Below the pieces are notes generated by a model that saw only the letters and a program-made list of their open reading frames with translations, was not told the origin of the DNA and did not search any database. Below are positions 1-44,227 of a stretch of 64,000 bases of DNA, piece by piece; within the stretch, counting starts at the first letter, position 1, and each line of letters opens with the position of its first letter. The position numbers and the translations under genes were made by a program. Source of the stretch: Bacteroidia bacterium (GTDB taxonomy: Bacteria; Bacteroidota; Bacteroidia; Palsa-965); contig JBIOHC010000001.1 of NCBI GenBank assembly GCA_044448685.1, positions 29,941 to 93,940 on the forward strand, written 5' to 3'.

Positions 1-2292
1 GTCTATATCTATTCCAATGATCCGGCTGTTTCGCATTTCCAGCTTAGCTTCAGCAATGTGGGTGCCGGAAACGGTGATTATATCAATATCCCTTCCAGTG
101 CCAACGGGCGGGTATTTCAGTGGGTGGCACCTGTTTCCGGTGTTCACCAGGGCAGTTATGCTCCGGTCATACAGCTTGTCACGCCGAAGAAAAAACAAAT
201 GATTACCGGAGGCGGGGAATTTATCCTCAGCAAACACACCACACTGGGTGTTGAAGGAGCATTGAGTAATTATGACCAGAACACTTTTTCGCCCTATGAC
301 GATCAAAACAATACGGGTTATGCATTTCGTTTTAATCTGAACAATAAAACCTATTCCGGTACCTTGCCGCCGGATACTACAGGGAAACCGGCCCTTAAAA
401 AGCCAAGCAGACAAGACAGTCTGGATCATGCACGGGTCCTGAATGCCGCTCACCTGCGCGAGATACCGGGCATTCCGGATCCGGCAATGACGAGTAAATG
501 GATTTTTTCCAAAACACTGAATTACGAGTATGTACAGCAGAATTTCACTCCTATAGAGCGTTACAGAAGTACGGAGTTTGAGCGGGACTGGAATACGGGC
601 ACCCTTCCTTTTGTTAGTGATCAGCATTATACAACAGCAGGTTTTGCACTTACGCGTAACCGTTATGGAAGCCTGGGTTATACCCTCAGCAGTTTTATGG
701 AAGGGAGTGAATACAATGGCCTGAAGAATGATATGAACGGAACTTTTGCCAGGGCTGGATATATGCTGAAGGCGAATGTCAGTCTGCTGAATACAGGCGG
801 CACACAAAGCAATTCACAGTTTCTGCGTCACAAAGCAGAGCTGAGCAAAAAAATACGGCGTATCACCATAGGTGTTACCGAGCAACAGGAAGTAAATCGA
901 ATGCGGGCACCGGGAGCTGACAGTCTCCTGCCAACGAGTTTCAGTTTTTTTGAATGGCAGGCCTATGTACAGAGCGCCGATACAGCCCGCAACAAATACA
1001 GGCTGAGCTATAAGCACCGCCAGGATTTTACCGCATTCCAGAATCATTTTAATCCCCTTTCCGATGCACAGGACCTGGGCTTTTCCCTGGCCGTTCTGAA
1101 AAACAAAAACAATGACCTTAAGACAACCGTTACGTATCGTCAGCTGGAGGTGCTGAGTACAAGTCTGACATCCCAGAAACCAGAAAACTCTCTTGTAGGT
1201 AGAATAGAATACAATCTGCGCCTCTGGCAGGGGTTGCTCACCTCCAATACCTTTTATGAAGCAGGCTCTGGGCTGGAACAGAAAAAAGAATACTCCTATG
1301 TGCTTGTTCCGGCAGGCCAGGGTCAGTATACCTGGATTGATTATAACGGGGATGGAATAAAACAACTGAATGAATTTGAGATAGCCTTGTATCCTGATCA
1401 GGCTACCTATATCCGTGTATTTACACCTACCGATCAGTATATAAAAGCATATACAAACCAGTTCAGCCAGAATCTGCTGCTTAAGCCGGGAGCCCGCTGG
1501 ACCAACAAGAAAGGGATTAAGAAAGGGCTTTCGCATTTTGCCGATCAGGCCACCTACCGTGTAGACAGGAAGACAACCAGTGTGGATCCTGTGAATGCAT
1601 ACAACCCGTTTTTAAAATCCATCCTGGATACTTCTCTGGTCACATTGAATTCATCCTTCCGCAATACGCTTTTCTTCAATCAGAATGATCCTGTGTTCGG
1701 CATTGATCTGAATTTTCAGGATGTACGCGGGAAGTCATTGCTGACAAACGGTTTTGAGACGAGGCTGAATGATTTTTATGAGCTTCGTATACGGTGGAAT
1801 ATGAATAAGACACTCGGACTGATAGTAACCGGAAAAGACGGAACCAAAAGCAATGCATCCCAGTTTTTTGCGAACCGTGATTATACTCTGGCTTACAGAG
1901 GTGCTGATCCAAAGCTTACCTACCAGCCCAATAACCGTTTCAGGCTGGCTTTTGACTATGCGTATACGGAAAAGAAGAACAATGTAGATCAGGGAGGAGA
2001 AACCGTATTCTCCAGTAATCTGGGGGCTGAAACAAAATACAATATTGTGAATAAGGGAAGCCTGACAGCCAAACTCAATTATATAGATCTTCATTATAAC
2101 GGATCACCCAACAGCGCTGTAGCTTATGAAATGCTGGATGGTCTGCATCCCGGAAAAAATGTAACCTGGTCAGTAGGGTATCAGCGCACCTTATCGAACA
2201 ACATACAGGTTAACATCACTTATGAAGGACGTCAAAGTGAGAATATCAAGACGATACATACAGGGGGAGCAACGGTAAGAGCCTTTTTCTAA
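1..2292 (+). CDS. C-terminal ≥744 aa of a large predicted outer-membrane β-barrel protein; the gene continues upstream of the window
   Basis: The ORF runs open from the window edge. It shows alternating amphipathic β-strand patterns, is rich in Y/N/T/G, and ends in ...RAFF, a C-terminal aromatic typical of OM β-barrels. It lies convergent with a T9SS cargo protease. A SprA-like T9SS translocon is one possibility but cannot be confirmed from sequence. Confidence 0.5.
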   Translation, partial: VYIYSNDPAVSHFQLSFSNVGAGNGDYINIPSSANGRVFQWVAPVSGVHQGSYAPVIQLVTPKKKQMITGGGEFILSKHTTLGVEGALSNYDQNTFSPYDDQNNTGYAFRFNLNNKTYSGTLPPDTTGKPALKKPSRQDSLDHARVLNAAHLREIPGIPDPAMTSKWIFSKTLNYEYVQQNFTPIERYRSTEFERDWNTGTLPFVSDQHYTTAGFALTRNRYGSLGYTLSSFMEGSEYNGLKNDMNGTFARAGYMLKANVSLLNTGGTQSNSQFLRHKAELSKKIRRITIGVTEQQEVNRMRAPGADSLLPTSFSFFEWQAYVQSADTARNKYRLSYKHRQDFTAFQNHFNPLSDAQDLGFSLAVLKNKNNDLKTTVTYRQLEVLSTSLTSQKPENSLVGRIEYNLRLWQGLLTSNTFYEAGSGLEQKKEYSYVLVPAGQGQYTWIDYNGDGIKQLNEFEIALYPDQATYIRVFTPTDQYIKAYTNQFSQNLLLKPGARWTNKKGIKKGLSHFADQATYRVDRKTTSVDPVNAYNPFLKSILDTSLVTLNSSFRNTLFFNQNDPVFGIDLNFQDVRGKSLLTNGFETRLNDFYELRIRWNMNKTLGLIVTGKDGTKSNASQFFANRDYTLAYRGADPKLTYQPNNRFRLAFDYAYTEKKNNVDQGGETVFSSNLGAETKYNIVNKGSLTAKLNYIDLHYNGSPNSAVAYEMLDGLHPGKNVTWSVGYQRTLSNNIQVNITYEGRQSENIKTIHTGGATVRAFF

Positions 2293-2296
2293 GATC

Positions 2297-4390
2297 TTAT
2301 CTGACAACCAGCTTCCTGGTAACCTGTTGGTTATTGATCTGAATGGAGGTGATGTAGATACCGGGCTTCAACACAACGGAAGTGTTGATCCGGAACGAGT
2401 GCTCGCCTGCAGCAAGCGTTTGATCACAAACCTTCATCACTTCCCGGCCTGCGATATCCTGAATGTGTATGGCTACATGATGCGCATCTTCTGTGCTGAA
2501 AGCAATAGTGGTATGATCATCAGCAGGGTTAGGATACAGCATCAGGTTGTTCAGGCCCAGCGCCTGTTCCTGAATGCCTGCAAAAGAGGAATAGATATTG
2601 ATATCATCGATAAAAACATCGCTTCCACCCCCGTTGATAATTTCGAATTTGAAACGCATATCAGTCCAGCTTTGATAGGGGCTTACTCCAACAGTTTCTG
2701 TTCTCCATTGTGTGGAATTAGGGACGAAGCTGCCTGTGAGACTGGAGGTAGTGGCTAATGCAGTGCCGAGCTTGTTATATCTCAGTTGCCAGGTCTGACC
2801 GCAGTCGTTTGAGAAATACACCCTCAGATTATCCTTGTCAGTTGTAGCCTGCTGGGCAAAGGCAAGGCGGAAGGTCATGGCAGCGCTGGGGATTTTTGTC
2901 ATATCGATGGAAGGCCCTACAGCCGATTCTGTCTGACCCAATATACTGGCTGCATTGTGTTGCTTAAGCGAAGCAGCACCGGATGAAAAAGCGGAGGTTG
3001 TGCGTTGCCAGGCATTGCCCTGGGGACTGATCATTGTCCAGTCGCTCGTGAGGGCAGTTGCATTTTCAAATCCTTCCGAATAGGAGGAGGAGGTATAGGT
3101 GGTGGTGGTTGGGCTCACAATCACATGCGATGTACGGGTTATGGAATTTGTTCCGGAAGCATTCGTTTCCGACAGTGTTACACTGTATGTTCCCGGTGTA
3201 GCATACTGAATGGTGGGAAAAGAGTCGGTAGAGGAGGAAGGTGTTCCACCCGGAAACTGCCAGCTCCAGGAAGAAGGCTGACCCGCCATCAGCAGGTAGT
3301 TGAACTGATACGAAGCCCCTGCACAAAGCATGATCGGTGTATTCGGCATAAAGTCGGCAACTGGGGCACACAAAACAGGGGTATTGAGCACGCCTGTTGC
3401 ACTCAGGTTGGATGCAGTCCACAGCTGATTACGCTGTGCGGTTGCCGAATTGAGCGCATTGGTCATACGGGAGGCCTGACCCAGGGTGAACATACGTGAG
3501 CAATAAGAGTAATCCATATAGTTCTGGTAATTCTCCTCTATAGAGGTATTGCAGATTTTTGCGGTGGAAGCTGTTGCACAATGTGTCCAGCCTTTTGTGA
3601 TTGGTGTATCCGAAACAGCGTCATCACCGCAGGATACACCGGGAGAGTTGGTATTGCCCCAGGGATGCTGGAGATTGAAGAAGTGGCCTATTTCATGTGT
3701 CAGGGCGCGGCTCGTTACGGTTGATCCGGTTCCTGTACTGCCAATGTAATTCGAAAGGATAAGGATACCGTCAATAGTGGAGCTAAGAAAATTGGAAGGA
3801 AGGTATGCATAACCGGCAGCTCCGTTAGAAATGGTTTTCACGACCCATACATTCAGGTATTTATTCCGGGGCCAGGGATTCAGTTTGGAATTATCATCAC
3901 CTATATACGTTTGTAAAGAAGCAATACGGTCAATGCCGTTGGTGCATTTTCCGTTCGGGTCGATCTGAGCAAGGCGGAATTCAATTTTTGTGTCAGCAAT
4001 GATACTTTTGAAAACGGAATCCACCACTGAAGTATCTGCATTCAGCTTACGGTAATCCCGGTTCAGGATATTCACTTCATCCAGAACCTGTGCATCGGAA
4101 ATATTCTCAGGACCATAATCGTGAAGGATATGGAATACAACGGGAATAATATAGGTGGGTGCAGAGGAGACGGTTTTCATCTGCCTATAGCCATGCATAA
4201 AATCGAGAGCATCCTGATTTTTCAATACCAGTTCATTGGCTTCAAACTCTGCTTTCATCTTTGGATTATCGCGATACAGCTTTTCGTAAATAGCCGGAGT
4301 GCCGCAATATTTCAGGGTTTCGCCGGTCTGAGCTTTGCCGGCGGAAACGAACAGAAGGATCAGTATGGGAAGGGAATAAAATTTCTTCAT
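2297..4390 (-). CDS. Secreted metzincin-type zinc metalloprotease with PKD-like domain and T9SS C-terminal sorting domain
   Basis: N-terminal signal peptide MKKFYSLPILILLFVSAGKAQ. Zinc motif HEIGHFFNLQH (HExxHx5H) followed by a Met-turn region. PKD-like segment (…TYSVTLSETNASG…). C-terminal ~80 aa with the T9SS CTD signature (…LMLYPNPADDHTTIAF…KPGIYITSIQINNQQVTRKLVV). Confidence 0.85.
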   Translation of the reverse strand: MKKFYSLPILILLFVSAGKAQTGETLKYCGTPAIYEKLYRDNPKMKAEFEANELVLKNQDALDFMHGYRQMKTVSSAPTYIIPVVFHILHDYGPENISDAQVLDEVNILNRDYRKLNADTSVVDSVFKSIIADTKIEFRLAQIDPNGKCTNGIDRIASLQTYIGDDNSKLNPWPRNKYLNVWVVKTISNGAAGYAYLPSNFLSSTIDGILILSNYIGSTGTGSTVTSRALTHEIGHFFNLQHPWGNTNSPGVSCGDDAVSDTPITKGWTHCATASTAKICNTSIEENYQNYMDYSYCSRMFTLGQASRMTNALNSATAQRNQLWTASNLSATGVLNTPVLCAPVADFMPNTPIMLCAGASYQFNYLLMAGQPSSWSWQFPGGTPSSSTDSFPTIQYATPGTYSVTLSETNASGTNSITRTSHVIVSPTTTTYTSSSYSEGFENATALTSDWTMISPQGNAWQRTTSAFSSGAASLKQHNAASILGQTESAVGPSIDMTKIPSAAMTFRLAFAQQATTDKDNLRVYFSNDCGQTWQLRYNKLGTALATTSSLTGSFVPNSTQWRTETVGVSPYQSWTDMRFKFEIINGGGSDVFIDDINIYSSFAGIQEQALGLNNLMLYPNPADDHTTIAFSTEDAHHVAIHIQDIAGREVMKVCDQTLAAGEHSFRINTSVVLKPGIYITSIQINNQQVTRKLVVR

Positions 4391-6448: not shown

Positions 6449-7045
6449 TTATGTTCGTGCGAAAGAAATTAGGGGCTGAATATTTCCTTTGTCTGCTTGC
6501 TTTATTGCCGTCAGATAACTTGTCCGTGCTTCACCTTTTTTAACCAAGCTATTCCGGTTCCAGGTAAAAACAGGGTTCCCAAACAAGTGACTTATAATCA
6601 CATCTGCGATAAGCCTGGAGTGTCTGCCGTTTCCATTCGGGAAGCAGTGTATAGCAACGATTCTATGACTGAATTGAATAGCGATTTCATCTTCGCTGAA
6701 GGCCATATTCTCAATCCAGAAGGAGCAGTCATCAAGGAGTTTTTTGAGTTCCATCCCAATAAACATCCACATAACACCAAGGTTTTTATCCGATTTTCTG
6801 AAGCTCCCTGCCCAGCTCCAAACATCCTCAAACATTTTCCGGTGCAGGTCAAGCACAAATTCTTCGGAAACCACGCGCCCTTTCCCGAACTTCCGTGTCA
6901 AGGTCCACTCAATTGCTTTTTCTATATTTAATTGCTCGAACTCATCCAGCTCCCCACGTGTTGCTATACTTCCAATGAGTAGCCCATCCTTCTCTTCTTC
7001 GGACAATGGAGTTTGACCGTCCTGATAATCAAGACTCAATCCCAT
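6449..7045 (-). CDS. Fic-domain protein of the 'mobile mystery protein B' type (putative Fic toxin/AMPylase)
   Basis: Canonical Fic motif HCFPNGNGRHSRL (HxFx[D/N]GNGRxxR). Length 198 aa. Overlaps the upstream HTH partner by 10 bp. Confidence 0.8.
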   Translation of the reverse strand: MGLSLDYQDGQTPLSEEEKDGLLIGSIATRGELDEFEQLNIEKAIEWTLTRKFGKGRVVSEEFVLDLHRKMFEDVWSWAGSFRKSDKNLGVMWMFIGMELKKLLDDCSFWIENMAFSEDEIAIQFSHRIVAIHCFPNGNGRHSRLIADVIISHLFGNPVFTWNRNSLVKKGEARTSYLTAIKQADKGNIQPLISFART

Positions 7046-7503
7046 AAGTATTTCGGTATTGTGTTTTTAAGTTCTTCGGTTTTATCCTTTATGGCTTTCT
7101 GAAGTCGCTCTGAAGTATTTTCCTGATTCTCCAGCATCATAGTGTTGGAAGTGCGCTGCACAATTTCAGTGGCTTTTTCCCTTGCTTTTTTTTCAATCAT
7201 TTCCTCCAGGCTCAGGTCTTTGGGAACAAACGCATAAACGAATTTCATATCCAGGGCACGGGCTACATCTTTCATCGTATTTATTGTAATTGCTCCGGTG
7301 GTCTCCCGGATTTCTAACGCAATAATGTTTTGGGGGGATTTCTTAAGCCTTAATCCCAACTGTCGGAGTGACATCTTTAGTGCTTTCCGTATTCCATTAA
7401 TCCATCCGTTTGCCGGAGGCACTATTTTCGTGTCCAGCCCTTTAGCAGATTCCAGCTTCTTATCAATCTGCCCTATTAATAGCCATTGTTTGCTGTCTTT
7501 CAT
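7036..7503 (-). CDS. HTH-domain protein of the 'mobile mystery protein A' type (putative antitoxin/regulator of the Fic partner)
   Basis: 155-aa protein. HTH-like segment (…IRKALKMSLRQLGLRLKKSPQNIIALE…). Translationally coupled to the downstream Fic gene, the classic A/B pair arrangement. Confidence 0.7.
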   Translation of the reverse strand: MKDSKQWLLIGQIDKKLESAKGLDTKIVPPANGWINGIRKALKMSLRQLGLRLKKSPQNIIALEIRETTGAITINTMKDVARALDMKFVYAFVPKDLSLEEMIEKKAREKATEIVQRTSNTMMLENQENTSERLQKAIKDKTEELKNTIPKYLWD

Positions 7504-7674
7504 AACTAAATAAGTTTAAATCAAAACTCAAATATACATATATATATTTAAAATCAAATCTATATATTAAATATATAAGTGTAAAATACTGACTAATTAT
7601 TTATGTAAATGGCTGATTATAAGTAGTTAATGTGAATCGCGTGTTGTCCGGGGGCACTCCAGAGCTCGGGATTT
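7504..7674. promoter_or_regulatory. Extremely AT-rich intergenic segment (~20% GC); probable promoter region for the HTH/Fic pair and possible island junction
   Basis: aaatatacatatatatatttaaaatcaaatctatatattaaatatataag. On the minus strand TATATTTG (a Bacteroidota −7-like TAnnTTTG) lies ~35 nt upstream of the 7503 start codon. Confidence 0.3.
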
Positions 7675-7932
7675 CTATTGCAAGCGAACGGGTAGAGAGG
7701 GAATGAAGGTTATACCTCCGAATTTACCTATATAGGGCACAACCCAAACGGCTCCAACCACTAAAAGTATAAGGCCAATCCACCAGGAATTGTTCGCATG
7801 GATAAGGAAGATTAGAATTAATCCGAAAGCCCAGAATGTGTAGCCTCGATAAATCGCAGGTGGAGGGAAGAGTTTACCTATTCGGTAATCAATCGGAAGT
7901 TTGAGATTGGTAGTAATTGAGTTGTTAGACAA
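7675..7932 (-). CDS. Small two-TM membrane protein (85 aa), hypothetical
   Basis: Two hydrophobic helices (FWAFGLILIFLIHA…; WWIGLILLVVGAVWVV). Sits inside the immunity-like gene array. No family recognised. Confidence 0.45.
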   Translation of the reverse strand: MSNNSITTNLKLPIDYRIGKLFPPPAIYRGYTFWAFGLILIFLIHANNSWWIGLILLVVGAVWVVPYIGKFGGITFIPSLPVRLQ

Positions 7933-7940
7933 CGGTGATT

Positions 7941-8807
7941 TTATTTAACGTATAATATCATTTTTTGTTTGCCGCTTTCTGTTTCGTGCGTGATTGAATC
8001 ATAAATATTCCACTTAAAGCCGAGAACCCAGTGCCCTTTTTTGGTCGCTTCGATGACTACTGTCGCTTGCCCCTCATTATTTTGCAACTGAGTTGTTTTA
8101 ACAGGGTTCTCATTTTTATCCAAATCTTCATGAAATACTGTCACTGTGGAGTTCGGTGGGTTTGCAATAATCATTGTCGAATGGAAAGAATCATTCAGCT
8201 TGACTGTGTCATTTTTGTATCTGAATTCAATAATCCCAGCTCCCTTTTTTAATGTTAGCTTTCCATGATTATCATACATTCGAACGTATGTTAAATTCCC
8301 CTGAGCCGAATAGTATTTATATGAACTTCGTATCCCACTTTTATAGTAGTAATTCCATTCATGAACCATTTTGTCGCCATTCTTGAATCCTGAATAGAAC
8401 ATTTTTCCATTGGAATAATAAGCTTTTTTCTCCCCTTTTTGGACTCCTTCTGAATAAGTTGTTAATATTACGCCGTCACTGTCGTCTAATTGTTTTCTTA
8501 TTCCTTCTATTTTCCCATTCGTTGAGCAAAATGAATCAGCAAGAATTCCATTATTATCATACTTTAAAACGATTTCGGAATGCTTTGAGCTGTCAATAAG
8601 GATTCTCCGTGCTACAATTTTTCCTGAGGAATCACGTTGAACAAAGATTTTATTTCCCAATGAATCATGCTCAATATCTGCTTTGTTCTGTTGATTACAA
8701 CTAACAAAAGCAATTGCTGTGAAAAACGAATAAAAAAACAAACGATTTCGAATAATATTAGTCACCTTCGGTATTGTTGAGAATGAGTTGGAGCAGTGTC
8801 TTTGCAC
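7941..8807 (-). CDS. Lipoprotein with MORN-variant/YwqK-type repeats (putative polymorphic-toxin immunity protein)
   Basis: Signal peptide with lipobox …AIAFVSC. Repeated G-x-w-x-YY-x-NG-k motifs (KAYYSNGKMFYSGFKNGDKMVHEWNYYYKSGI…YDNHGKL), typical of YwqK-family antitoxins. Confidence 0.65.
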   Translation of the reverse strand: MQRHCSNSFSTIPKVTNIIRNRLFFYSFFTAIAFVSCNQQNKADIEHDSLGNKIFVQRDSSGKIVARRILIDSSKHSEIVLKYDNNGILADSFCSTNGKIEGIRKQLDDSDGVILTTYSEGVQKGEKKAYYSNGKMFYSGFKNGDKMVHEWNYYYKSGIRSSYKYYSAQGNLTYVRMYDNHGKLTLKKGAGIIEFRYKNDTVKLNDSFHSTMIIANPPNSTVTVFHEDLDKNENPVKTTQLQNNEGQATVVIEATKKGHWVLGFKWNIYDSITHETESGKQKMILYVK

Positions 8808-8913
8808 TGTCTCTTAGGTTATTGTTCATCAAGATTTCTCCTGAGATTGTTGTGTACTTGCCCTTTTCAAGGTCAATACGGTACACAGTCGTTGTTTTGG
8901 ATTGCTTTTTCAT
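8758..8913 (-). CDS. Possible small ORF (51 aa, MKKQSKTTTVYRIDLEKGKYTTISGEILMNNNLRDSAKTLLQLILNNTEGD)
   Basis: Too short for the ORF track. Found by reading the minus strand beside the GC-rich junction. Overlaps the annotated start of the YwqK-like gene. May be a gene remnant. Confidence 0.2.
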   Translation of the reverse strand: MKKQSKTTTVYRIDLEKGKYTTISGEILMNNNLRDSAKTLLQLILNNTEGD

Positions 8914-8989
8914 TTAGTTTCATATCCTTTTTTACTTTATGTTATGGTGTCCTATTTTTGTCAGTGGGTAAGGAACCCATCCGATCATG

Positions 8990-9180
8990 AATCGAATGGA
9001 ACCCACTAACCTGCCTCCATTTCCCTTCGCTCCCTGCCTGCCGTCGCGCAGGCCTGTGTTACGGCAGGCAGGCGTTTCCCCTCCTTCGCTACTGCTCCTG
9101 CCTCCGTTATCACTTCGGCAAGCAAGTCGGAGGGCAAGTCCGCTCTGATTTTCCCAGCATTCGGAGGATGGAGAGGGTGA
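8990..9180. repeat. GC-rich palindromic segment ending in copy 1 (9142–9175) of a 34-bp direct repeat
   Basis: Perfect 12-bp inverted repeat cctgcctgccgt…acggcaggcagg. Recurring cctgcct motifs. Ends with gctctgattttcccagcattcggaggatggagag. Confidence 0.75.
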
Positions 9181-9186
9181 GGAAGG

Positions 9187-9678
9187 TCACTTCTTTCTAA
9201 TTAATATCAATTGTCCGATCTTCTTCACTTCATGTGAGTCGCTTAACATGTCTCCAAGCTGGACCACATAGGTTATGGTATCACCAGGAAGCTTTGCAAA
9301 GTCTCCGACTAAGGAATTCAGGCTGCAAGTTCTGATATAATGATCGCCATTAATGCCGATTGTCCAACGTAATAAGTCAATACCCTCTATATCCTCCTTC
9401 TCTGTATTAATGCAGAGTTGATACCCCTGCAATATATGTGTGCTATTAGCCCCTCCTGATTTTACCCAGTGGTTTTCAATCCAAGCTTCTTTTACATGTA
9501 ATGGCAAGGTGTCATTTAATTTATATGGGTTAGGATTTGCAGTGTATTCGGCAATCAATACGCCACGTTGCTTTGCTTCCGCAATGTCTTGGGAGATATT
9601 TGCATGTGTATTCTGGTCACATGAAAGTCCTGCAAGGCAGGATAATTCTAATATCAATTTCAGCATAGTTGTTTTCAT
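9187..9678 (-). CDS. Lipoprotein, 164 aa (putative immunity cassette); the 211-aa track ORF is trimmed to the lipoprotein start
   Basis: Starts MKTTMLKLILELSCLAGLSC, a signal peptide with an LAGLSC lipobox. The start codon (ATG, read on the minus strand at 9678–9676) is 6 nt from copy 2 of the 34-bp repeat. The gene is flanked on both sides by the repeat. Confidence 0.6.
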   Translation of the reverse strand: MKTTMLKLILELSCLAGLSCDQNTHANISQDIAEAKQRGVLIAEYTANPNPYKLNDTLPLHVKEAWIENHWVKSGGANSTHILQGYQLCINTEKEDIEGIDLLRWTIGINGDHYIRTCSLNSLVGDFAKLPGDTITYVVQLGDMLSDSHEVKKIGQLILIRKK

Positions 9679-9683
9679 GATTA

Positions 9684-9717
9684 GCTCTGATTTTCCCAGC
9701 ATTCGGAGGATGGAGAG
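9684..9717. repeat. Copy 2 of the 34-bp direct repeat (identical to 9142–9175), with ~15 nt of further degenerate similarity beyond it
   Basis: gctctgattttcccagcattcggaggatggagag is identical in both copies. The extension ggagag[c/g][t/g]tg[g/a]gg[g/a]aag is partly conserved. Confidence 0.8.
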
Positions 9718-9739
9718 CTTGGGGGAAGATGGAATCGCT

Positions 9740-10228
9740 TTATTGAACCTTAACCTTAAAATATACCTCGTTTGAAAGCTTGATTTGTTTGTTTGAAATA
9801 AGAGTAATATAGCAAGGGTCAACTAACTCTTTCGGATTTGGCTCAGGAATCTCTTTGACTTTGGTACTTTTAATTTCAAATAAGTTTAATGAAATGCCGC
9901 CATCCGTTAACTCAATTTTCCCTTCTCTGATTACCCTTGACGTAAAAGTGAAATACATTTTATCTTCAGCCAGACGGTACTTCCCCTTTACTTGTATGAT
10001 GTCCCGAAGGTCATCGGACATACTGGATAGATTCAGAACGAACGTGTTGTTATCATAAAATTCGAAGTTCTGTGCAAGCCCGCTACCAACGAGTTCATTG
10101 TCGCGCTGCCAAACACCAACCAAATCAGATTTTGACAAACAACAAGAATCTTTCTTGGCTTGACCAAATAAGATAAAGTTGGAAAGGCAGAGAGATAGCA
10201 GAAGTGCGTATGAAAATTTAATATTCAT
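9740..10228 (-). CDS. Secreted/periplasmic 162-aa protein (putative cognate immunity protein for the adjacent RHS toxin)
   Basis: Signal peptide MNIKFSYALLLSLCLSNFILFGQA. Lies immediately downstream of the RHS toxin gene in the canonical immunity position. Confidence 0.6.
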   Translation of the reverse strand: MNIKFSYALLLSLCLSNFILFGQAKKDSCCLSKSDLVGVWQRDNELVGSGLAQNFEFYDNNTFVLNLSSMSDDLRDIIQVKGKYRLAEDKMYFTFTSRVIREGKIELTDGGISLNLFEIKSTKVKEIPEPNPKELVDPCYITLISNKQIKLSNEVYFKVKVQ

Positions 10229-10250
10229 GATTGGGGTTTTGAATAGTCGT

Positions 10251-12392
10251 TTAATTTGTTCCGTTTAAGTTCGATGTTTTTCTAATCACGCCTGTCGGTA
10301 CAGGATTTCCAAACTGGTTAGTCCTAACTTGTTCTACATAGTGATACCCCGTTTTCGGTGTAACAGTTGGGCTTAGGGTATAGAAGGAGACGCTATTAAG
10401 CAATGTTTGGGAAGAGAAAACAGAACCTTTACCTGGCCCAACCGCTTTAAATCCATTACTGGCCCCTATATTAGCAATAGCTCCTTTATCTACGTTTTCC
10501 CCTACAGAAAACGTGCCAACGTGACCGTGTCCATTTGGATTATTATAACCAAACAATGCCAGGTTGCCATTTGCAGCAGCAGTCGTAGCTCCAGCTTGGG
10601 TTGTTGCTATTAGAAGTGGGTTAGTTGCAAAATTATTGGTCATGCTATTCGCCATACCTGTTATATCCAGACCTGATGAGTTATTTGAACCTGAAATAAC
10701 TGTTTTAAGAACGTTCTGAGTGGCATAATTACAATAAGTAGCCCCATTCCCAGGTTCCAAAGCGGAGTTCCCATTATTCAAATTTTGTTGCTCCTGAATT
10801 GCAGTTGTCAAATTAACCTTGTTTTCTCCATCATTTGACTCATCCCAGCCATTAAATTCATAGTGCTTGTTAACGCCAGTTCCTGTTTGTTGAAATACGG
10901 CATTGGAGTTGTCTTCCACATGTTTGACCATTTTTCCATCTGCGTCTTTGAAATCAGTGTCCTCTCTTCCATCTGGGTCGGTTAGTCTTACGGGATTTGC
11001 TCGTACATAACCAAATGGTGTCCAACTTTCAAATTTTGATGCCAACTGGTCAATACCACACCATCTTCCTGTTTGCGGGTCGTACATACGTGCCCCATAA
11101 TCATACAAGCTCAATCCATTCCCACCAGCTCCAAACTCGTTCTGCTGTAACTCTTTCCCGTTGTAAAGATAATTCGTCTGGGTCAGACCTGAAAATGCCT
11201 GGTTCTGGTCAAAGATGAGGCCGTAAGGATAGTAGTTGTATTCTTCCAGCAATTGTCCTTTATAATGCACAATCTGCATATTGTCAAAACGAACATCTAC
11301 ACCACTGGTATTGCTTGTGAATACACGTAGGAAGCCATTCTGGGGAATACTTACGGTTTGGGTTGGCAGGCTTACCCAGGCGTTTGCGGCATTCTGGCTG
11401 ATTTGAATAGCTCCGCTTCCTCCGGGAATCAGGTTCATGTTTGCATCATAAAGAATATAATTAAGAAATGCAGCCGGAGAGTTCGGGTTGGCTGCACTTT
11501 GCTGCATATTGACCATAGCATTGGATAAACCCGTAGTGGAAGAAAGCTGTACAGCGGGACCACCGTCAACAGGTATTGCAAGCGGGGCGGCAAAGGCGCT
11601 TATAAAGGTTTGTAATACGGATGCTACTGTCTGGTTGGCGCTTGGGTCCGAGGAAGGAATGAATAATCCTTCTGCATTGATGATCAGGGTATCACCTGCC
11701 ATGACTTTTAGTGTAATATCCGGGCCGATAGGGTTTGCAGTTCCAACCTTGGCAGCCATCACATTACCTGTATCGGTTGCCAGGGGGCGGGCTGAACGGG
11801 TTGTCATCAAGTTATTAAAGAGCTGGATCTCGGTGCTGGTCTTGCTTATTTCGCTTGTGGCGAGGTATGTTACCGGTGTTTTTCCACCACTACTGGGTAC
11901 TTCTCCTACTACAGAGCGGGTATTGCCTAAATGATCCTTGATATAAAATTCATACTTGCTTGATGGATTGTTCAGGGGTGATGCCAGGTTCGCAGTGTTC
12001 AGTACCCGCCCTTCGTCATGCACAACATAATCCAGACTCTTGTTGATATAAATTACCGGTCCCATGTATTCGGTGGTTACAGGGGTGAGGTGGTTATTGC
12101 TTACTTTCTGGAGTTTATTGCCCTGGGCATCATAGACAAATTTGATAGTTCCGTAACTGTTCGCCGCGTCTGTTTGTTTGTTCAGAAATACATCATAGGC
12201 ATAGGTCATGCCTTTGTTGGCATCGCTGAGCTGGTTTCCGTTCCGGTCATAGGTGTAATCGGTGGATGCGGGAACATCACGGAAATCACCAAGTCCGTCA
12301 AATACGAAGGGGCTTGTGGATACTCCGTGATCATCCACTTTCTTGAGGTGGTTGCTGGAAGGGTCATAGGTGTATTGCAGATCATCCAGCAC
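10251..12392 (-). CDS. RHS/YD-repeat polymorphic toxin: YD repeats, RHS core end, ~270-aa C-terminal toxin tip
   Basis: YD repeats (YTYDPSSNHLKKV, YTYDRNGNQLS, YAYDVF…, FVYDAQGNKLQ). RHS core terminus YDYGARMYDPQTGRWCGIDQL…ANPVRLTDPDGRE (PxxxxDPxG). Variable tip with Cys (GATYCNYATQNV) and His (NGHGHVGTF). The reading frame is open up to a TAG at 12408–12410. Confidence 0.85.
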   Translation of the reverse strand: MLDDLQYTYDPSSNHLKKVDDHGVSTSPFVFDGLGDFRDVPASTDYTYDRNGNQLSDANKGMTYAYDVFLNKQTDAANSYGTIKFVYDAQGNKLQKVSNNHLTPVTTEYMGPVIYINKSLDYVVHDEGRVLNTANLASPLNNPSSKYEFYIKDHLGNTRSVVGEVPSSGGKTPVTYLATSEISKTSTEIQLFNNLMTTRSARPLATDTGNVMAAKVGTANPIGPDITLKVMAGDTLIINAEGLFIPSSDPSANQTVASVLQTFISAFAAPLAIPVDGGPAVQLSSTTGLSNAMVNMQQSAANPNSPAAFLNYILYDANMNLIPGGSGAIQISQNAANAWVSLPTQTVSIPQNGFLRVFTSNTSGVDVRFDNMQIVHYKGQLLEEYNYYPYGLIFDQNQAFSGLTQTNYLYNGKELQQNEFGAGGNGLSLYDYGARMYDPQTGRWCGIDQLASKFESWTPFGYVRANPVRLTDPDGREDTDFKDADGKMVKHVEDNSNAVFQQTGTGVNKHYEFNGWDESNDGENKVNLTTAIQEQQNLNNGNSALEPGNGATYCNYATQNVLKTVISGSNNSSGLDITGMANSMTNNFATNPLLIATTQAGATTAAANGNLALFGYNNPNGHGHVGTFSVGENVDKGAIANIGASNGFKAVGPGKGSVFSSQTLLNSVSFYTLSPTVTPKTGYHYVEQVRTNQFGNPVPTGVIRKTSNLNGTN

Positions 12393-12613
12393 AATGATGG
12401 AGCCTGCCTACCGGACATGAGTTTATTTTCACGGGCGCTTAATGAGGCCAGAAGCTTTCGTGTTTTCTTCTCCTGTTGCTTTACATAGGCCTCATTCTTT
12501 TTCTCCAACTTTTTCAAATACCGCACTTTCTTCCGTTCGGAATGGATGGTATCCTGTGCCGCAATGGAAAGCGAACAGCATAAGAATAGGAGAATCCCCA
12601 GGCCTCTTAACAT
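12393..12613 (-). CDS. N-terminal fragment (signal peptide + coiled-coil) of the RHS gene, separated from the body by a frameshift
   Basis: MLRGLGILLFLCCSLSIAAQ signal peptide, then a K/E-rich helix. The frame diverges from the YD-repeat frame near 12393–12420. A single-base indel would fuse it to …SIIVLDDLQYTYDP…. Confidence 0.55.
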
Positions 12614-37853: not shown

Positions 37854-40829
37854 ATGAAAAATACTTACCGCACATTATTCGCATTGTCTTTCCTTGTTAT
37901 GCTACCTGAATTTTCCGTTGCTCAGGAATTCTGGGGTATGACTTCCAGCGGAGGAGCTTATGGACTTGGAACAATTTTCAAAGCTGATTCCGGCTGTACA
38001 AATGCAGTAGCGAAATATTCTTTTGTATCCAATATTCCGGGGTCGAATCCATCGGGCGACCTCGTTCAGGCAAGCAACGGGAAATTTTATGGCATGACGA
38101 CAAACGGAGGGACGAATGGAACCGGTGTGCTATTTGAATATGATGCAACCGGGGGTATTTACACACGCAAATTCGAATTCATAGGAACAACGACAGGAGC
38201 CAATCCTGTCGGTTCGCTTATTCAGGCCGGGAATGGAAAACTGTACGGGATGACCAGCAGCGGAGGTACCGGCAACATCGGAGTACTGTTTTCCTTCGAT
38301 CCCGTCTCTTCTGCATTTGTAAAACTGATTGACTTTTACGGAGCAAACGGTTCAATGCCCACAGGTTCCCTGATGCAGGCAAGTACAGGTAAGTTATATG
38401 GTCTTACAAGTGCAGGCGGAGGCAATGGAAAAGGAATTCTGTTCTCCTATGATCCCGTAACCACCACCTTCATGGATAAATTTGATTTTTCAGGAACAGC
38501 GGATGGAGCAGGCCCTCAGGGATCGCTTATTCAAGCTATGAACGGTAAATTATATGGTCTGACAACCTATGGAGGAATAAAAAATGCCGGGGCCCTTTTT
38601 CAATTCGATACCCTATCAGGAGCACTTTCCAAACTGGCAGATTTCGACACTATTCCCACAGGATGTAATCCAACCGGCTCCCTTGTTGAGATCAGCCATG
38701 GTAAATTATTCGGTACAGCTTCCTATGGGGGAGTAAATACGAATGGTACAATTTTTTCATATGTCATCAGTACGGGCATTTTTAGCAAAGTAGCAGACTT
38801 TAATGTTGCAACACTTGGCGGAACTCCTAACGGATCAATGGTTCTTGCACCCAATGGAAAGTTTTACGGACTGACTTTTGCGGGAGGCACAAACGGGATA
38901 GGTACTCTCTTTCAGCTTGATACCACGACTCTGACACTTGTTAATAAAGTAAATCTCTCCGGCTCAGCAAACGGATCAAATCCTAAAGGTTCTCCTATTC
39001 TGGCAACGGATGGTAAGTTATACGGAATGGATTACAACGGAGGCTTGAACAACAGCGGTGTATTGTTCCAATATGACCCGGGAACAAGTACGTATACTGA
39101 TAAGGTGGATTTTGAAACAGCAGTCAATGGAGCCGTACCTACAGGCAACCTGTATATGGCAACGAATGGAAAATTTTATGGAATGACGACTGCAGGGGGT
39201 ACAAACGGAACGGGTGCCTTATTCGAATTTGATACCGCCACTTCGGTGTTAACCTCCAAGGTGCAGTTCACCGGAGCAAATGGAACAAGCCCGAATGGAT
39301 CCCTTATGCAGGCAAGCAACGGAAAATTATACGGGGTAACAACCGGGGGAGGTACTTCGAATTCAGGTATTTTGTTCGAATACGATCCTGCTTCATCGAC
39401 CTATACTAAAAAGTATGATTTTGACGGTGCAGGTAACGGAGGGGCTCCTTTTTGCACCTTGTTACAGGCAAGCGATGGTTTGATTTATGGAGTAGCTACA
39501 ACCGGGGGAGCTAACAGTGCCGGTGTCCTCTATTCCTTTGACCCTGCAAGTTCAACCTATACCAAGACATTCGACTTTAACACATCGATAGACGGCGGGT
39601 CCCCGTATGGAGCACTCATACAGACAAGCCCTGGACGGCTGTTCGGGTTGACAGCCGGAGGAGGAAATAACGGAACGGGTATACTATATGAATATTCAAT
39701 TTCCTCTGCCGCCTGCACAAAAAGAGTTGATTTTGTTGGAACTACGAATGGTACCAATCCATATGGTGCTCTGGTTTCGATGCCAGGAGGTAAATTATAC
39801 GGAACTACATCAGGAGGAGGCGCTAATGGACTGGGCGTTATTTTCGAATACGATACAGCTTCCGGAACATTGACAAAAGTATTGCCGCTCACTGCACAGC
39901 CAAACGGAAATTTTCCACAAGGATCCATAATCGTTGCCGGGAATCAATTATTTCTGACGACCGTGAATGGGGGGGTGAACAATATTGGAGCACTTGTAGA
40001 ATATGACCCGGTTTCGAACACAGCTGTAAATAAATCGGATTTCGTTCGTACATCGACAGGTGCTGATCCCTACGGTGATCTGGTATATTTCTGTAATCCT
40101 GTTGCCGTAAGCGCCAATTCGGGTGATACAGCCAAATGTCAGGGCAACACAAGTATTTTATGGGTTACTACTACCGGCAAGTATGTAACCTATCAATGGT
40201 ATAAGAATGGAGTTGCAATAGGCGGAGCCACAGGTTCCAAATATATTATTCCAAACATGTCAGCCTCAGACAGTGCATTCTATTACTGTAATGTGCAGAA
40301 TGCATGTGGAAATCTGAATTCATTGCAGGTTCATATTACGCTCAATGCACAGCCTTCAGTTCCCACCATAACACAAAATGGTGCCGTATTAACTTCCAGT
40401 TCGGTAACAGGAAATCAATGGTACCTGAATGGGGTTATTATTACAGGTGCAACGGCTCAGAATTATACGCCGTCAGCGAACGGAAACTATACTGTGACCG
40501 TTACCAATAGCAGTGGATGTTCCGCAACTTCCGCCCCCTTTAATATGACCAATACCGGAATAACGGAAAAAGCCGGAGAGTTGATTATGCAGGTGTTTCC
40601 GAATCCGGCAACGACAACGCTCAATCTTAGTTTCCAGGTGGAGCAAGAAACACAAACAGAATTATCCGTGATGGATCTGCTGGGCAATACGGTTCTGAAT
40701 AGCCGTGCTTATCTTACAAAATCTGCCAATAAAACAGTTTTGGATATCAGTATTCTTAACCCCGGAATGTACGTACTCAAAGTGAGCAGTATTTCTGGTC
40801 AGGGGTTGATAAAGTTCTTCAAACAGTAG
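37854..40829 (+). CDS. Secreted protein with ~13 tandem GloVer-type ~48-aa repeats, Ig-like domains and T9SS C-terminal sorting domain
   Basis: Signal peptide. Repeats of the form NPxGSLxQAxNGKLYGMTxxGGxNGxGVLFEYDxxxxxxTKxxDF. C-terminal FPNPATTTLNLSF…YVLKVSSISGQGLIKFFKQ (T9SS CTD). Confidence 0.8.
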   Translation: MKNTYRTLFALSFLVMLPEFSVAQEFWGMTSSGGAYGLGTIFKADSGCTNAVAKYSFVSNIPGSNPSGDLVQASNGKFYGMTTNGGTNGTGVLFEYDATGGIYTRKFEFIGTTTGANPVGSLIQAGNGKLYGMTSSGGTGNIGVLFSFDPVSSAFVKLIDFYGANGSMPTGSLMQASTGKLYGLTSAGGGNGKGILFSYDPVTTTFMDKFDFSGTADGAGPQGSLIQAMNGKLYGLTTYGGIKNAGALFQFDTLSGALSKLADFDTIPTGCNPTGSLVEISHGKLFGTASYGGVNTNGTIFSYVISTGIFSKVADFNVATLGGTPNGSMVLAPNGKFYGLTFAGGTNGIGTLFQLDTTTLTLVNKVNLSGSANGSNPKGSPILATDGKLYGMDYNGGLNNSGVLFQYDPGTSTYTDKVDFETAVNGAVPTGNLYMATNGKFYGMTTAGGTNGTGALFEFDTATSVLTSKVQFTGANGTSPNGSLMQASNGKLYGVTTGGGTSNSGILFEYDPASSTYTKKYDFDGAGNGGAPFCTLLQASDGLIYGVATTGGANSAGVLYSFDPASSTYTKTFDFNTSIDGGSPYGALIQTSPGRLFGLTAGGGNNGTGILYEYSISSAACTKRVDFVGTTNGTNPYGALVSMPGGKLYGTTSGGGANGLGVIFEYDTASGTLTKVLPLTAQPNGNFPQGSIIVAGNQLFLTTVNGGVNNIGALVEYDPVSNTAVNKSDFVRTSTGADPYGDLVYFCNPVAVSANSGDTAKCQGNTSILWVTTTGKYVTYQWYKNGVAIGGATGSKYIIPNMSASDSAFYYCNVQNACGNLNSLQVHITLNAQPSVPTITQNGAVLTSSSVTGNQWYLNGVIITGATAQNYTPSANGNYTVTVTNSSGCSATSAPFNMTNTGITEKAGELIMQVFPNPATTTLNLSFQVEQETQTELSVMDLLGNTVLNSRAYLTKSANKTVLDISILNPGMYVLKVSSISGQGLIKFFKQ

Positions 40830-43484: not shown

Positions 43485-44224
43485 ATGCGGACAAAAGGGG
43501 AATATACTAAAGAAAGAGCTTGTGCGTTTTTCAATTCATTAACGTATATAACGATCAGGTCATAGTCTACCTCAAAGGTGCCCTTGGGGCCCGTTTCAAT
43601 AAGGATAGTCCTTGGATTGGCTCTTAGCTCCAACATCCGTCGCCTGTCATACTCTGTACTGCTGGCCAACGTTTCGGCATTCATGATACCAACTACTTTG
43701 GCCAGATATTCTTCAGTAGGATAGATAAAATCTCCATCCTTTCCGAGTGTTTTGTCAATTACAAAACCGACACGGGTGAACATAGGCAGGGAATATTCTG
43801 CACAAATCCCCAGCAAGGTTCGGAAGTGAAGCTGGTTAATAATGGATATGGCAGCCCGCACCAGCAGGATACTGATTCCCCGTCCGGCCACTTCCCTGGC
43901 ATTCCAGAGTCCGCAAAGTTCACCGGTACCTCCATCCTGACGGTGTTTGAGTACAAGATCATATACCTGGGAGTCCATCTTGCCAACTGCGGTTTCAACC
44001 GGCAATGGATGCACTCCATCGGCAACCTGGACACGAATTCCTCCAACTAGTTTACCATCCAGCTCGGCTACTACGCCATAAGTGAATGGATTTTCTGCCC
44101 AGTCTTTGGAATAGGAGGTGACATTGAGGATACCATAATCTTCCAGCACCCTTCGATGGCCTTCTATGTATTCCAGGCATAAGCCCTGCTCCCATACGGG
44201 GTAAAAAGATCTGATTTTCAGCAT
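43481..44224 (-). CDS. GNAT-fold protein resembling LuxI/FeeM-type N-acyl amino-acid (autoinducer-like) synthases, with ~70-aa C-terminal extension
   Basis: 247 aa. β-α GNAT-like core (…YGVVAELDGKLVGGIRVQV…GELCGLWNAREVAGRGISILLVRAAISI…). 4-bp overlap with the downstream HK (ATGA). Family assignment from sequence pattern only. Confidence 0.45.
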   Translation of the reverse strand: MLKIRSFYPVWEQGLCLEYIEGHRRVLEDYGILNVTSYSKDWAENPFTYGVVAELDGKLVGGIRVQVADGVHPLPVETAVGKMDSQVYDLVLKHRQDGGTGELCGLWNAREVAGRGISILLVRAAISIINQLHFRTLLGICAEYSLPMFTRVGFVIDKTLGKDGDFIYPTEEYLAKVVGIMNAETLASSTEYDRRRMLELRANPRTILIETGPKGTFEVDYDLIVIYVNELKNAQALSLVYSPFVRI

Positions 44225-44227
44225 GGA

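What the first reader, a model, noticed from the sequence alone, without database searches (positions are those of the whole stretch)
10251..12613. Short Sec-signal RHS/YD-repeat toxin interrupted by a frameshift, with an unassigned Cys/His C-terminal tip
The YD repeats and the RHS core terminus (…YDYGARMYDPQTGRW…DPDGRE) are clear. The signal-peptide N-terminus (12613→~12420) is in a different frame from the repeat body: a TAG at 12408–12410 closes the body frame just upstream of …SIIVLDDLQYTYDP. A single indel in a short run near 12393–12420 would restore an ~787-aa protein. The ~270-aa tip beyond DPDGRE has a Cys (ATYCNYATQNV) and a His (NGHGHVGTF) spaced in a CHAP/NlpC-P60-like amidase pattern. 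That would fit a periplasm-acting toxin, in keeping with the signal peptides on the downstream candidate immunity proteins.
Basis: partly seen in the sequence, partly recalled or inferred. Interest (0 to 1): 0.55.

Follow-up and report, generated by a model that had tools for sequence, protein, structure and literature searches.

The report
Stranded RHS toxin fragment with immunity
This is the tail end of a bacterial RHS "toxin-in-a-cage" gene: it carries a cell-wall-cutting enzyme related to the Pseudomonas toxin Tse1, with its own antidote gene next door, and it is a truncated leftover of an ordinary kind, not a complete short toxin broken by one frameshift.

Summary
The sequence observations hold. 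A 719-codon open frame on the minus strand (12407→10254, stop 10251-10253) carries YD repeats, an RHS core ending in DPDGRE, and a 236-aa tip. A TAG at 12408-12410 closes this frame. A signal-peptide-like ORF starts at 12613 in another frame.

The "short RHS split by a frameshift" reading is not supported. RHS homology starts at the first codon after the TAG. Full-length carriers of this tip are signal peptide + DUF6443 + RHS proteins of 1120-3382 aa, with 645-1353 residues ahead of that point. The 119 closest homologues are 5'-truncated fragments with scattered start points, and none has a signal-peptide leader. The leader ORF has no relatives anywhere. A fused 787-aa product would hold about one third of the cage and no delivery domain.

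Best reading: a stranded orphan-type rhs-CT/rhsI module in a small low-GC island. This is an ordinary new member of a known kind.

The parts
12411..12613 (-). Leader ORF. It starts at ATG 12613 and encodes MLRGLGILLFLCCSLSIAA|QD..., a signal-peptide-like N-terminus followed by a Lys/Glu-rich stretch. The frame is different from the RHS body and runs on to 12206 across it. It is probably the 5' stub of a gene for an exported protein of unknown identity.
   Evidence: Searches show the frames. In one search, only 6 of 147 ORFs pass a signal-peptide heuristic, and the other 5 are real exported proteins. One search gives a codon-usage score of 0.096, which is ambiguous. Searches found no homologue.
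12408..12410 (-). TAG stop in the RHS body frame. It marks the 5' breakpoint of RHS homology.
   Evidence: Alignments to P0028, P0054, P0094 and P0125 reach query residue 1 (AGS...) and do not extend upstream.
10251..12407 (-). 5'-truncated rhs fragment: 719 open codons plus a stop at 10251-10253. The source annotation calls it 713 aa from GTG 12392. It is identical to P0026, 'RHS repeat-associated core domain-containing protein [Bacteroidia bacterium]'.
11871..12407 (-). Terminal YD-repeat hairpins (YTYDPSSN, YTYDRNGNQL, FVYDAQGNKL ... KDHLGNTR). They are equivalent to about aa 737-880 of a 1191-aa full-length RHS protein.
11253..11870 (-). Inserted beta-jelly-roll domain that resembles carbohydrate-binding modules (CBMs). 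It sits between the last YD hairpins and the RHS core.
10962..11234 (-). RHS repeat-associated core domain (YYPYGL...YDYGARMYDPQTGRW...NPVRLTDPDGRE). Its end, at codons 10962-10979, carries the DPxG cleavage-type motif.
   Evidence: TIGR03696, E 6.3e-13; core HMM, 121 bits.
10254..10961 (-). Toxin tip of 236 aa. It has a small N-terminal beta subdomain, then a Tse1/Tae1-like NlpC/P60 amidase domain, then a disordered tail. The predicted catalytic Cys is at codon 10731-10733 (C554 of the 713-aa ORF). The predicted catalytic His is at codon 10521-10523 (H624).
9740..10228 (-). Cognate immunity gene (162 aa) with an N-terminal signal peptide (...NFILFG|QAKK). It starts 22 nt after the toxin stop.
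   Evidence: 34% identity, E 9e-25, to the gene after the tip homologue in Mucilaginibacter; 55% identity to Puia; homologue directly downstream of the tip in at least 20 of 33 genome loci.
7675..9678 (-). Three further small genes with hydrophobic N-termini (about 9187-9678, 7941-8807 and 7675-7932), a 51-aa truncated ORF (8758-8913) and a GC-rich palindromic spacer. They are possible orphan immunity genes or cassette debris, and their functions are not established.
   Evidence: ORFs; no family; no homologues next to other tip loci; 41-nt direct repeat at 9142-9182 and 9684-9724; palindrome at 9033-9072.
6449..7503 (-). Mobile mystery protein A (HTH) and B (Fic) pair at the left end of the low-GC island.
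   Evidence: TIGR02612, E 1e-39; TIGR02613, E 4e-69; GC 0.35-0.41 over 7500-10500, against about 0.45 in the flanks.

Best explanation
The locus is a stranded, 5'-truncated rhs fragment of the orphan rhs-CT/rhsI type.

What it contains: the last third of a Bacteroidota DUF6443-type RHS cage, made up of a few YD hairpins, a CBM-like insert and the RHS core with DPDGRE. This is followed by a 236-aa toxin domain and, 22 nt later, its cognate immunity gene.

How the toxin would work: it is a Tse1/Tae1-like NlpC/P60 cysteine amidase with a Cys554/His624 dyad. When carried by a full-length RHS protein, it would be delivered to a neighbour's periplasm and cut peptidoglycan peptide stems. The immunity protein is exported by its own signal peptide and would block the toxin in the periplasm.

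What this copy lacks: the fragment has no signal peptide, no DUF6443 domain and at least about 650 aa of cage, so by itself it cannot be exported or enclose its toxin. Its 5' end is an illegitimate junction, created by an insertion or an internal deletion, with the first roughly 66 codons of a gene for an exported protein. The two frames simply do not match.

Likely present roles: (i) the intact immunity gene protects against neighbours armed with this toxin family; (ii) the intact 2.1-kb toxin cassette can be reactivated by recombination with a full-length rhs gene elsewhere in the genome, as shown for orphan rhs in Salmonella.

Shown here: the domain anatomy, the homology breakpoint, the fold and conserved dyad, and the toxin-immunity linkage. 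Inferred: amidase activity and bond specificity, periplasmic site of action, how the junction arose, and the present roles.
For: Breakpoint:
- Body homologues align from the first residue after the TAG.
- The upstream 540 nt carries no RHS signal. Core-HMM tile scores there are at most 1.8 bits, below the 99th percentile of the window background.

Missing parts:
- Full-length tip carriers match only window 12392-10317, through their aa 646-1082 of 1120, aa 724-1086 of 1181 and aa 1354-2112 of 2121.
- The body aligns to aa 737-968 of a 1191-aa Mucilaginibacter RHS protein.
- Five of six tested full-length carriers have DUF6443 near the N-terminus and the sixth has RHS repeats only. No DUF6443 or PAAR domain is present here.

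Orphan pattern in relatives:
- The start points of 119 homologues spread from -323 to +308 aa around the window's start, and none begins with a signal peptide.
- Chitinophaga oryzae has a full-length DUF6443-RHS gene followed by a 625-aa orphan plus a small gene.
- Mucilaginibacter has RHS + immunity + a 287-aa orphan with this tip + an immunity homologue.
- Isolated orphans or orphan arrays among housekeeping genes occur in L002, L004 and L006.
- Among 33 genome loci with this tip, about 9 are full-length and about 14 are orphan-sized.

Toxin:
- Profile-to-Tse1 E 1.2e-5, with the His aligned to the only GHV motif in Tse1. C77 and H147 of the tip are invariant.
- The Cys sits at a helix N-terminus and the His at a strand start, as in papain-like enzymes. 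The Tse1 Cys30/His91 dyad is described in PMC3695027.

Immunity.

Assembly quality: neighbouring genes give full-length Pfam matches (for example 2-380/381 and 2-315/317), so indel errors are not frequent in this assembly.

Precedent: orphan rhs-CT/rhsI modules lack initiation and export signals and are reactivated by recombination (PMC3150448; PMC3967940).
Against: - No full-length rhs gene lies within the 64-kb window, so the classical 'orphan downstream of a main rhs' arrangement is not seen. The rest of the MAG could not be examined.
- The leader ORF really does look like a signal peptide and lies exactly where a start would be needed.
- The fragment keeps a 719-codon frame with no decay, so it is either recent or under selection.
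- Read data were not available, so a 1-nt assembly error cannot be formally excluded.
Confidence: 0.78

Rival explanations
1. One reading: this is a genuine short (about 787 aa) Sec-exported RHS toxin whose reading frame is broken by a single-base indel, either a real mutation or an assembly error, near 12400-12410.
For: - A 1-nt insertion would fuse the two frames.
- The leader passes a signal-peptide heuristic that no shadow ORF in the window passes.
- The 719-codon body frame is intact.
- The leader's codon usage is the best of its three frames.
Against: - Homology to RHS proteins stops at the TAG.
- The fused protein would lack DUF6443 and at least 645 aa of cage that every full-length carrier has.
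- None of the 119 homologues has this architecture.
- The leader has no relatives at all.
- There is no homopolymer at the junction, and other genes in the window are unbroken.
- The AF2 model of the body leaves the core domain unpacked (pLDDT below 50). That fits a missing cage, though it is weak evidence.
Confidence: 0.07
2. This is a degraded main rhs gene. A once full-length RHS gene with its own unusual, non-DUF6443 signal-peptide N-terminus suffered a large internal deletion of at least 2 kb. The deletion joined codon ~66 to the last third of the gene, out of frame.
For: - The fragment is the first element of the island. It sits behind a 320-nt intergenic region and a signal-peptide-bearing start.
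- N-termini of full-length carriers are diverse.
- YD-repeat DNA is prone to internal recombination; an internal direct repeat is seen at 12227-12257 and 12344-12374.
Against: - The 45 residues after the signal peptide resemble no known RHS N-terminus or any other protein.
- No trace of repeat sequence is left on the leader side of the junction.
- In practice this differs from the best explanation only in history, not in present function.
Confidence: 0.12
3. The fragment is translated from an internal start (GTG 12392 or a downstream Met) and acts inside the producer like a toxin-antitoxin pair, as reported for the Salmonella orphan rhs.
For: The source annotation calls a 713-aa protein from the GTG. 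Such behaviour is reported in PMC7043789 (abstract).
Against: The toxin is a peptidoglycan amidase whose substrate is outside the cytoplasm, and its immunity protein is exported. A cytoplasmic product would therefore have neither a target nor contact with its antidote. No promoter-like excess was found.
Confidence: 0.03

Closest known systems
Orphan rhs-CT/rhsI modules of Enterobacteria (Dickeya, Yersinia, Salmonella; PMC3150448, PMC3967940)
   Same: A gene fragment that keeps the 3' part of the rhs core-coding sequence through the DPxG motif, together with a variable toxin domain. It lacks export signals and the 5' delivery part. It is followed at once by a cognate immunity gene. [quoted passage not shown]
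   Different: It is in Bacteroidota, with a DUF6443-type rather than a PAAR/T6SS-type parent. It is not downstream of a main rhs gene within 64 kb. It is an unusually long orphan (about 480 aa of body). Its 5' end abuts a signal-peptide-like stub in another frame.
Tse1/Tae1 of Pseudomonas aeruginosa (T6SS peptidoglycan amidase effector, NlpC/P60 fold; PDB 3vpi, 4eob, 4fgi)
   Different: Only 18-21% identity. Here the domain is the C-terminal cargo of an RHS protein, not a free Hcp-borne effector. It has an extra N-terminal beta subdomain of about 45 aa and a conserved QEQQNLN motif. The immunity protein shows no sequence similarity to Tsi1 or to any other solved structure. The bond cleaved is unknown.
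DUF6443-RHS proteins of Bacteroidota (for example Mucilaginibacter sp. SJ, 1191 aa; Chitinophaga oryzae, at least 1469 aa)
   Same: Same body sequence (35% identity over 479 aa to the C. oryzae full-length protein). Same CBM-like insert in the Chitinophaga type. Same core. The same tip family sits at the C-terminus of 1120-2121-aa members.
   Different: The window copy lacks the signal peptide, the DUF6443 domain and about two thirds of the YD shell.

Membership tests
Full-length (deliverable) RHS/YD polymorphic toxin | RHS repeat-associated core domain ending in a DPxG motif, followed by a variable C-terminal toxin | tested here: met
   TIGR03696, E 6.3e-13, aa 387-475, ends in DPDGRE. A 236-aa tip follows.
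Full-length (deliverable) RHS/YD polymorphic toxin | A YD-repeat shell long enough to form a closed cage | tested here: not met
   Only about 165 aa of YD hairpins precede the insert and core. The body matches just the last 230-760 residues of full-length relatives, which have 645-1353 aa ahead of that point. Pfam RHS_repeat reaches only E 0.55.
Full-length (deliverable) RHS/YD polymorphic toxin | N-terminal secretion or delivery region (signal peptide + DUF6443 in Bacteroidota; PAAR/VgrG-linked in T6SS types) | tested here: not met
   No DUF6443, PAAR or other domain is present. The signal-peptide-like ORF is in another frame and unrelated to carrier N-termini. There are no T6SS genes in the window.
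Orphan rhs-CT/rhsI module | A fragment that retains 3' rhs core sequence plus the CT domain but lacks the 5' part and export signals | tested here: met
Orphan rhs-CT/rhsI module | Cognate immunity gene immediately downstream | tested here: met
   The gene at 9740-10228 starts 22 nt after the toxin stop. Homologues follow the tip in at least 20 loci.
Orphan rhs-CT/rhsI module | [quoted passage not shown] | tested here: met
   P0148, P0150, P0156, P0158, P0160, P0164, P0179, P0180 and P0207 (1120-3382 aa) carry the tip at their C-terminus. Genome loci L014-L016, L021, L025 and L037 do too.
Orphan rhs-CT/rhsI module | Located downstream of a main (full-length) rhs gene in the same locus | tested here: not met
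   No other RHS-like sequence is present in the 64-kb window. Comparable isolated orphans exist in relatives.
Orphan rhs-CT/rhsI module | Absence of translation initiation signals | tested here: inconclusive
   An in-frame GTG at 12392 is used by the source annotation. No promoter excess was found. Bacteroidota start signals are weak, so this cannot be judged from sequence.
Tae1 (Tse1) family / NlpC-P60 amidases | Papain-like NlpC/P60 fold | tested here: met
   [not shown]
Tae1 (Tse1) family / NlpC-P60 amidases | Conserved catalytic Cys-His dyad | tested here: met
   C77 and H147 of the tip are invariant in 23-26 sequences. The His aligns with GHV of Tse1. The Cys is at a helix N-terminus and the His at a strand start. 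Distances in the model could not be measured.
Tae1 (Tse1) family / NlpC-P60 amidases | Sequence-level family membership | tested here: inconclusive
   The profile reaches Tse1 at E 1.2e-5 over about 95 residues. There is no Pfam or NCBIfam hit (CHAP, NLPC_P60, Tox-PL) even at E up to 10, and identity is 18-21%.
Tae1 (Tse1) family / NlpC-P60 amidases | Cleaves the gamma-D-Glu-mDAP bond of peptidoglycan | not testable with these tools
   This needs muropeptide digestion with purified protein.
Tae1 (Tse1) family / NlpC-P60 amidases | Free effector exported by a T6SS, paired with a Tsi1-type immunity protein | tested here: not met
   The domain is RHS cargo. There are no T6SS genes in the window. 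The immunity profile finds no solved structure, Tsi1 included.

The most novel reading that the evidence does not exclude
The leader and the fragment together form a switchable mini-RHS. A +1/-2 change at the junction, by mutation or by recoding during translation, would yield a Sec-exported 787-aa protein: one third of an RHS cage, a CBM-like receptor-binding insert and a Tse1-like amidase. It would work without the usual DUF6443 domain and without a full cage. That would be a new, minimal delivery format for RHS toxins.
Probability: 0.03. Interest if true: 0.6.

Novelty: new member of a known kind. Interest (0 to 1): 0.27.

Why it matters
For genome annotation, the 713-aa "RHS repeat-associated core domain-containing protein" should be read as a truncated orphan cassette, not as a working toxin or a simple frameshifted gene.

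Three results are modestly useful beyond this locus:
- **An unannotated toxin family.** It has no Pfam or NCBIfam model. It has about 570 representative sequences and is spread across Chitinophagaceae, Pedobacter, Flavobacteriaceae, Bacteroidales and Prolixibacteraceae. It can now be assigned as a Tse1/Tae1-like peptidoglycan amidase.
- **A matching immunity family**, also unannotated and exported, which now has a partner toxin.
- **A CBM-like jelly-roll inserted before the RHS core** in Chitinophagaceae-type RHS cages. It could be a receptor-binding element.

None of this overturns current understanding of polymorphic toxins.

Tried and rejected
1. **Decayed upstream RHS core under the leader ORF.** Weak tblastn matches suggested it (GFSYSYAVRFPLRHRIP vs SPYxYxxNNPxRxxDP; FFLIGL...VNY*GNKNAL vs YYPFGL...YLYNGKEL). 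I rejected it. A core HMM scored on 50-aa tiles in all six frames of the window gives those tiles at most 1.8 bits, below the 99th percentile of the background, while the true core scores 121 bits.
2. **Identity of the leader ORF.** No word-sharing candidate among 5.8 billion proteins. No tblastn hit in fetched loci. No relative in metagenome contigs. It does not resemble the N-termini of full-length carriers.
3. **Sister copies of the junction.** An exact-anchor pattern across the junction found nothing in metagenome contigs. The first genome-contig scan, with the 713-aa protein, found nothing. Exact-protein look-ups of the ORF and of P0026 found no contig. So the rest of the MAG and any read-level check were out of reach.
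4. **Integration site.** No tRNA, tmRNA or Rfam element was found as an integration site for the island. No flanking direct repeats mark island ends.
5. **Direct family hits for the tip.** Pfam and single-sequence PDB searches gave nothing. Only the profile and fold comparisons did.
6. **Other small island genes** (9187-9678, 7941-8807, 7675-7932). No family was found and they do not co-occur with other tip loci.
7. **Slippery or homopolymer sequence at the junction.** None was found for programmed frameshifting or phase variation.
Full report
**What is in the sequence**

On the minus strand, an open frame runs from 12407 to 10254, with its stop codon at 10251-10253. The longest start-codon ORF within it is 10251..12392, 713 aa from a GTG. 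A TAG at 12408-12410 closes this frame, and two more stops lie within the 11 codons upstream.

A second ORF starts at ATG 12613 (MLRGLGILLFLCCSLSIAAQDTIH...). It is in a frame offset from the body frame and stays open to 12206.

The junction sequence (tccggtaggcaggctcc) contains no homopolymer or other error-prone run. The 713-aa product is identical to a database protein named [quoted passage not shown], from a 286-kb MAG contig.

**Anatomy of the body**

NCBIfam places the RHS core domain TIGR03696 at aa 387-475 (E 6e-13), ending in DPDGRE. Upstream of it are only a few YD hairpins, and Pfam RHS_repeat does not reach significance (E 0.55).

**Is it a short RHS toxin broken by a frameshift?**

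Four lines of evidence say no.

1. *Homology starts at the TAG.* Several homologues align from query residue 1 or 2 of AGSIIVLDDLQYTY. For example, P0028 reads ...NTAGQKIIVDDLSYAY. Nothing upstream aligns in any frame. An apparent decayed RHS core under the leader did not survive a six-frame HMM tile test: at most 1.8 bits there, against 121 bits for the real core.
2. *Full-length relatives have much more ahead of that point.* The window matches:
   - aa 737-968 of a 1191-aa Mucilaginibacter DUF6443-RHS protein;
   - aa 646-1082 of 1120, aa 724-1086 of 1181 and aa 1354-2112 of 2121 in full-length carriers of the same tip;
   - nt 2005-3477 of a Chitinophaga oryzae locus, inside its full-length RHS gene (at least 1469 aa).

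   Five of the six tested full-length carriers have DUF6443 near the N-terminus, behind a signal peptide. DUF6443 is absent here.
3. *The closest homologues are truncated fragments.* The 119 closest body homologues are 338-962 aa long. They begin at points scattered from 323 aa inside to 308 aa upstream of the window's start, usually in mid-repeat. None has a signal peptide joined to this region. In complete genomes they are typical orphans:
   - in C. oryzae, a 625-aa fragment plus a small gene lies downstream of a full-length DUF6443-RHS gene and transposases;
   - in a metagenome contig, three fragments of 430-498 aa alternate with small genes between ribosomal-protein and ABC-transporter genes;
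   - in Niastella, a 789-aa fragment sits alone.
4. *The leader is an orphan sequence.* It shares no words with any of 5.8 billion proteins. It has no tblastn relative in metagenome contigs or in fetched loci. It does not resemble carrier N-termini.

The leader is nevertheless probably a real stub of a gene for an exported protein. A crude signal-peptide test passes 6 of 147 ATG ORFs of at least 60 aa in the window. Five are genuine exported proteins and the sixth is this ORF. Its codon usage is borderline (0.096, against 0.216 ± 0.072 for real genes).

A random junction between two coding sequences is out of frame two times in three, so the frame mismatch needs no separate frameshift event. 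Neighbouring genes give end-to-end Pfam matches, so the assembly is not riddled with indels. Read-level confirmation was not possible.

**The tip**

The 236 residues after DPDGRE have no Pfam, NCBIfam or direct PDB sequence match. They do have 25 close homologues and 568 cluster representatives at E ≤ 1e-3 in an exhaustive profile search. These lie at the C-terminus of both short orphan-sized proteins and full-length proteins of 1120-3382 aa.

The invariant residues include C77 and H147 of the tip, which are C554 and H624 of the ORF, together with a QEQQNLN motif.

The AlphaFold model is confident (pLDDT 92, pTM 0.88). The structural and profile comparisons agree:
- The Foldseek top 17 PDB hits are all Tse1/Tae1 of P. 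aeruginosa (E 1e-3 to 7e-2, probability 0.98-1.0).
- A tip-only profile finds Tse1 by sequence (E 1.2e-5), aligning GHGHV with Tse1's YGHVAVV.

Tse1 uses a Cys30/His91 dyad on an NlpC/P60 core and cuts the gamma-D-Glu-mDAP bond (PMC3695027). Activity and bond specificity remain inferred.

**The immunity gene**

The 162-aa ORF at 9740-10228 starts 22 nt after the toxin stop and has a signal peptide with a Gln after the predicted cleavage site. It is 34% identical (E 9e-25) to the gene just downstream of a tip homologue in Mucilaginibacter. It is 55% identical to the corresponding gene in Puia.

In a scan of species-representative genomes, 33 loci across Bacteroidota encode the tip. In at least 20 of them, a homologue of this protein follows directly. 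It has no relative among solved structures, Tsi1 included. An exported immunity protein fits a toxin that acts in the periplasm.

**Setting**

The fragment lies at the right end of a roughly 6.3-kb island with lower G+C. The island also holds:
- three more small genes with hydrophobic N-termini;
- a truncated 51-aa ORF;
- a GC-rich palindromic spacer;
- a mobile-mystery-protein A/B (HTH/Fic) pair.

The flanks are housekeeping genes: cystathionine synthase-like, SDR, ArsC-like, EamA, YicC and IleRS. There is no other RHS sequence and no T6SS gene anywhere in the 64 kb. The organism has T9SS-sorted proteins.

**Interpretation**

This is a stranded orphan-type rhs-CT/rhsI module. Orphan modules keep the 3' core sequence, toxin and immunity gene but lack initiation and export signals. 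They can be reactivated by recombination with a main rhs gene (PMC3150448; PMC3967940).

The fragment's intact 2.1-kb frame suggests that it is recent or maintained. The intact, exported immunity protein is the part most likely to be functional now.

Whether the junction arose by insertion into an exported-protein gene or by a large internal deletion of a once-complete rhs gene cannot be decided here.

**Verdict**

The tip and immunity interpretation is supported. The "short Sec-RHS with a frameshift" reading is not.

The locus is an ordinary new member of a known kind. Two modest by-products are a Tse1-like assignment for an unannotated Bacteroidota toxin/immunity family, and a CBM-like insert in Chitinophagaceae-type RHS cages.

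Noticed in passing
[not shown]
   Followed up: partly
window 9142-9182 and 9684-9724: A 41-nt direct repeat (93% identical) brackets the second small gene downstream of the toxin (about 9187-9678). This suggests cassette-like duplication or a shared regulatory element.
   Followed up: no
window 9000-9180: A GC-rich, non-coding stretch of about 180 nt sits in an otherwise low-GC island and carries a 20+20-nt palindrome at 9033-9072. No tRNA, tmRNA or Rfam family matches it.
   Followed up: partly
window 8758-8913 (minus strand): A 51-aa ORF (MKKQSKTTTVYRIDLEKGKYTTISGEILMNNNLRDSAKTLLQLILNNTEGD) looks like the N-terminal stub of a longer mobile-element protein. It overlaps the annotated start of the 288-aa ORF 7941-8807.
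   Followed up: no
window 6449-7503 (minus strand): A mobile mystery protein A (HTH, TIGR02612) and B (Fic domain, TIGR02613) pair sits at the left edge of the low-GC island, consistent with horizontally acquired DNA.
   Followed up: partly
homologues P0056, P0068, P0069, P0071, P0073, P0092, P0099, P0128, P0139, P0140: About ten of the 119 truncated RHS homologues start within 8 residues of the window fragment's start, at the (I/L)Dx(L)xYxY motif. This may be a preferred truncation or recombination point, or a gene-calling artefact.
   Followed up: no
L004 3800-16400 (JGI metagenome contig Ga0558074_0000145): An array of at least three orphan RHS fragments (430, 498 and 471 aa; one has a NucA/NucB DNase tip) alternates with small genes. 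It lies between ribosomal-protein genes and an ABC transporter, with no full-length rhs within 10 kb.
   Followed up: partly
window 43481-46546 (minus strand): A 772-aa protein combining ThiF-like and nitroreductase-like domains sits next to a 247-aa protein with no Pfam match. The layout is reminiscent of peptide-modification (RiPP-type) enzymes.
   Followed up: no
window 2297-4390 and 37854-40829: Two proteins carry the T9SS C-terminal sorting domain (Por_Secre_tail): an M43 peptidase with a PKD domain and a 991-aa Ig-domain protein. So the organism has a type IX secretion system.
   Followed up: no
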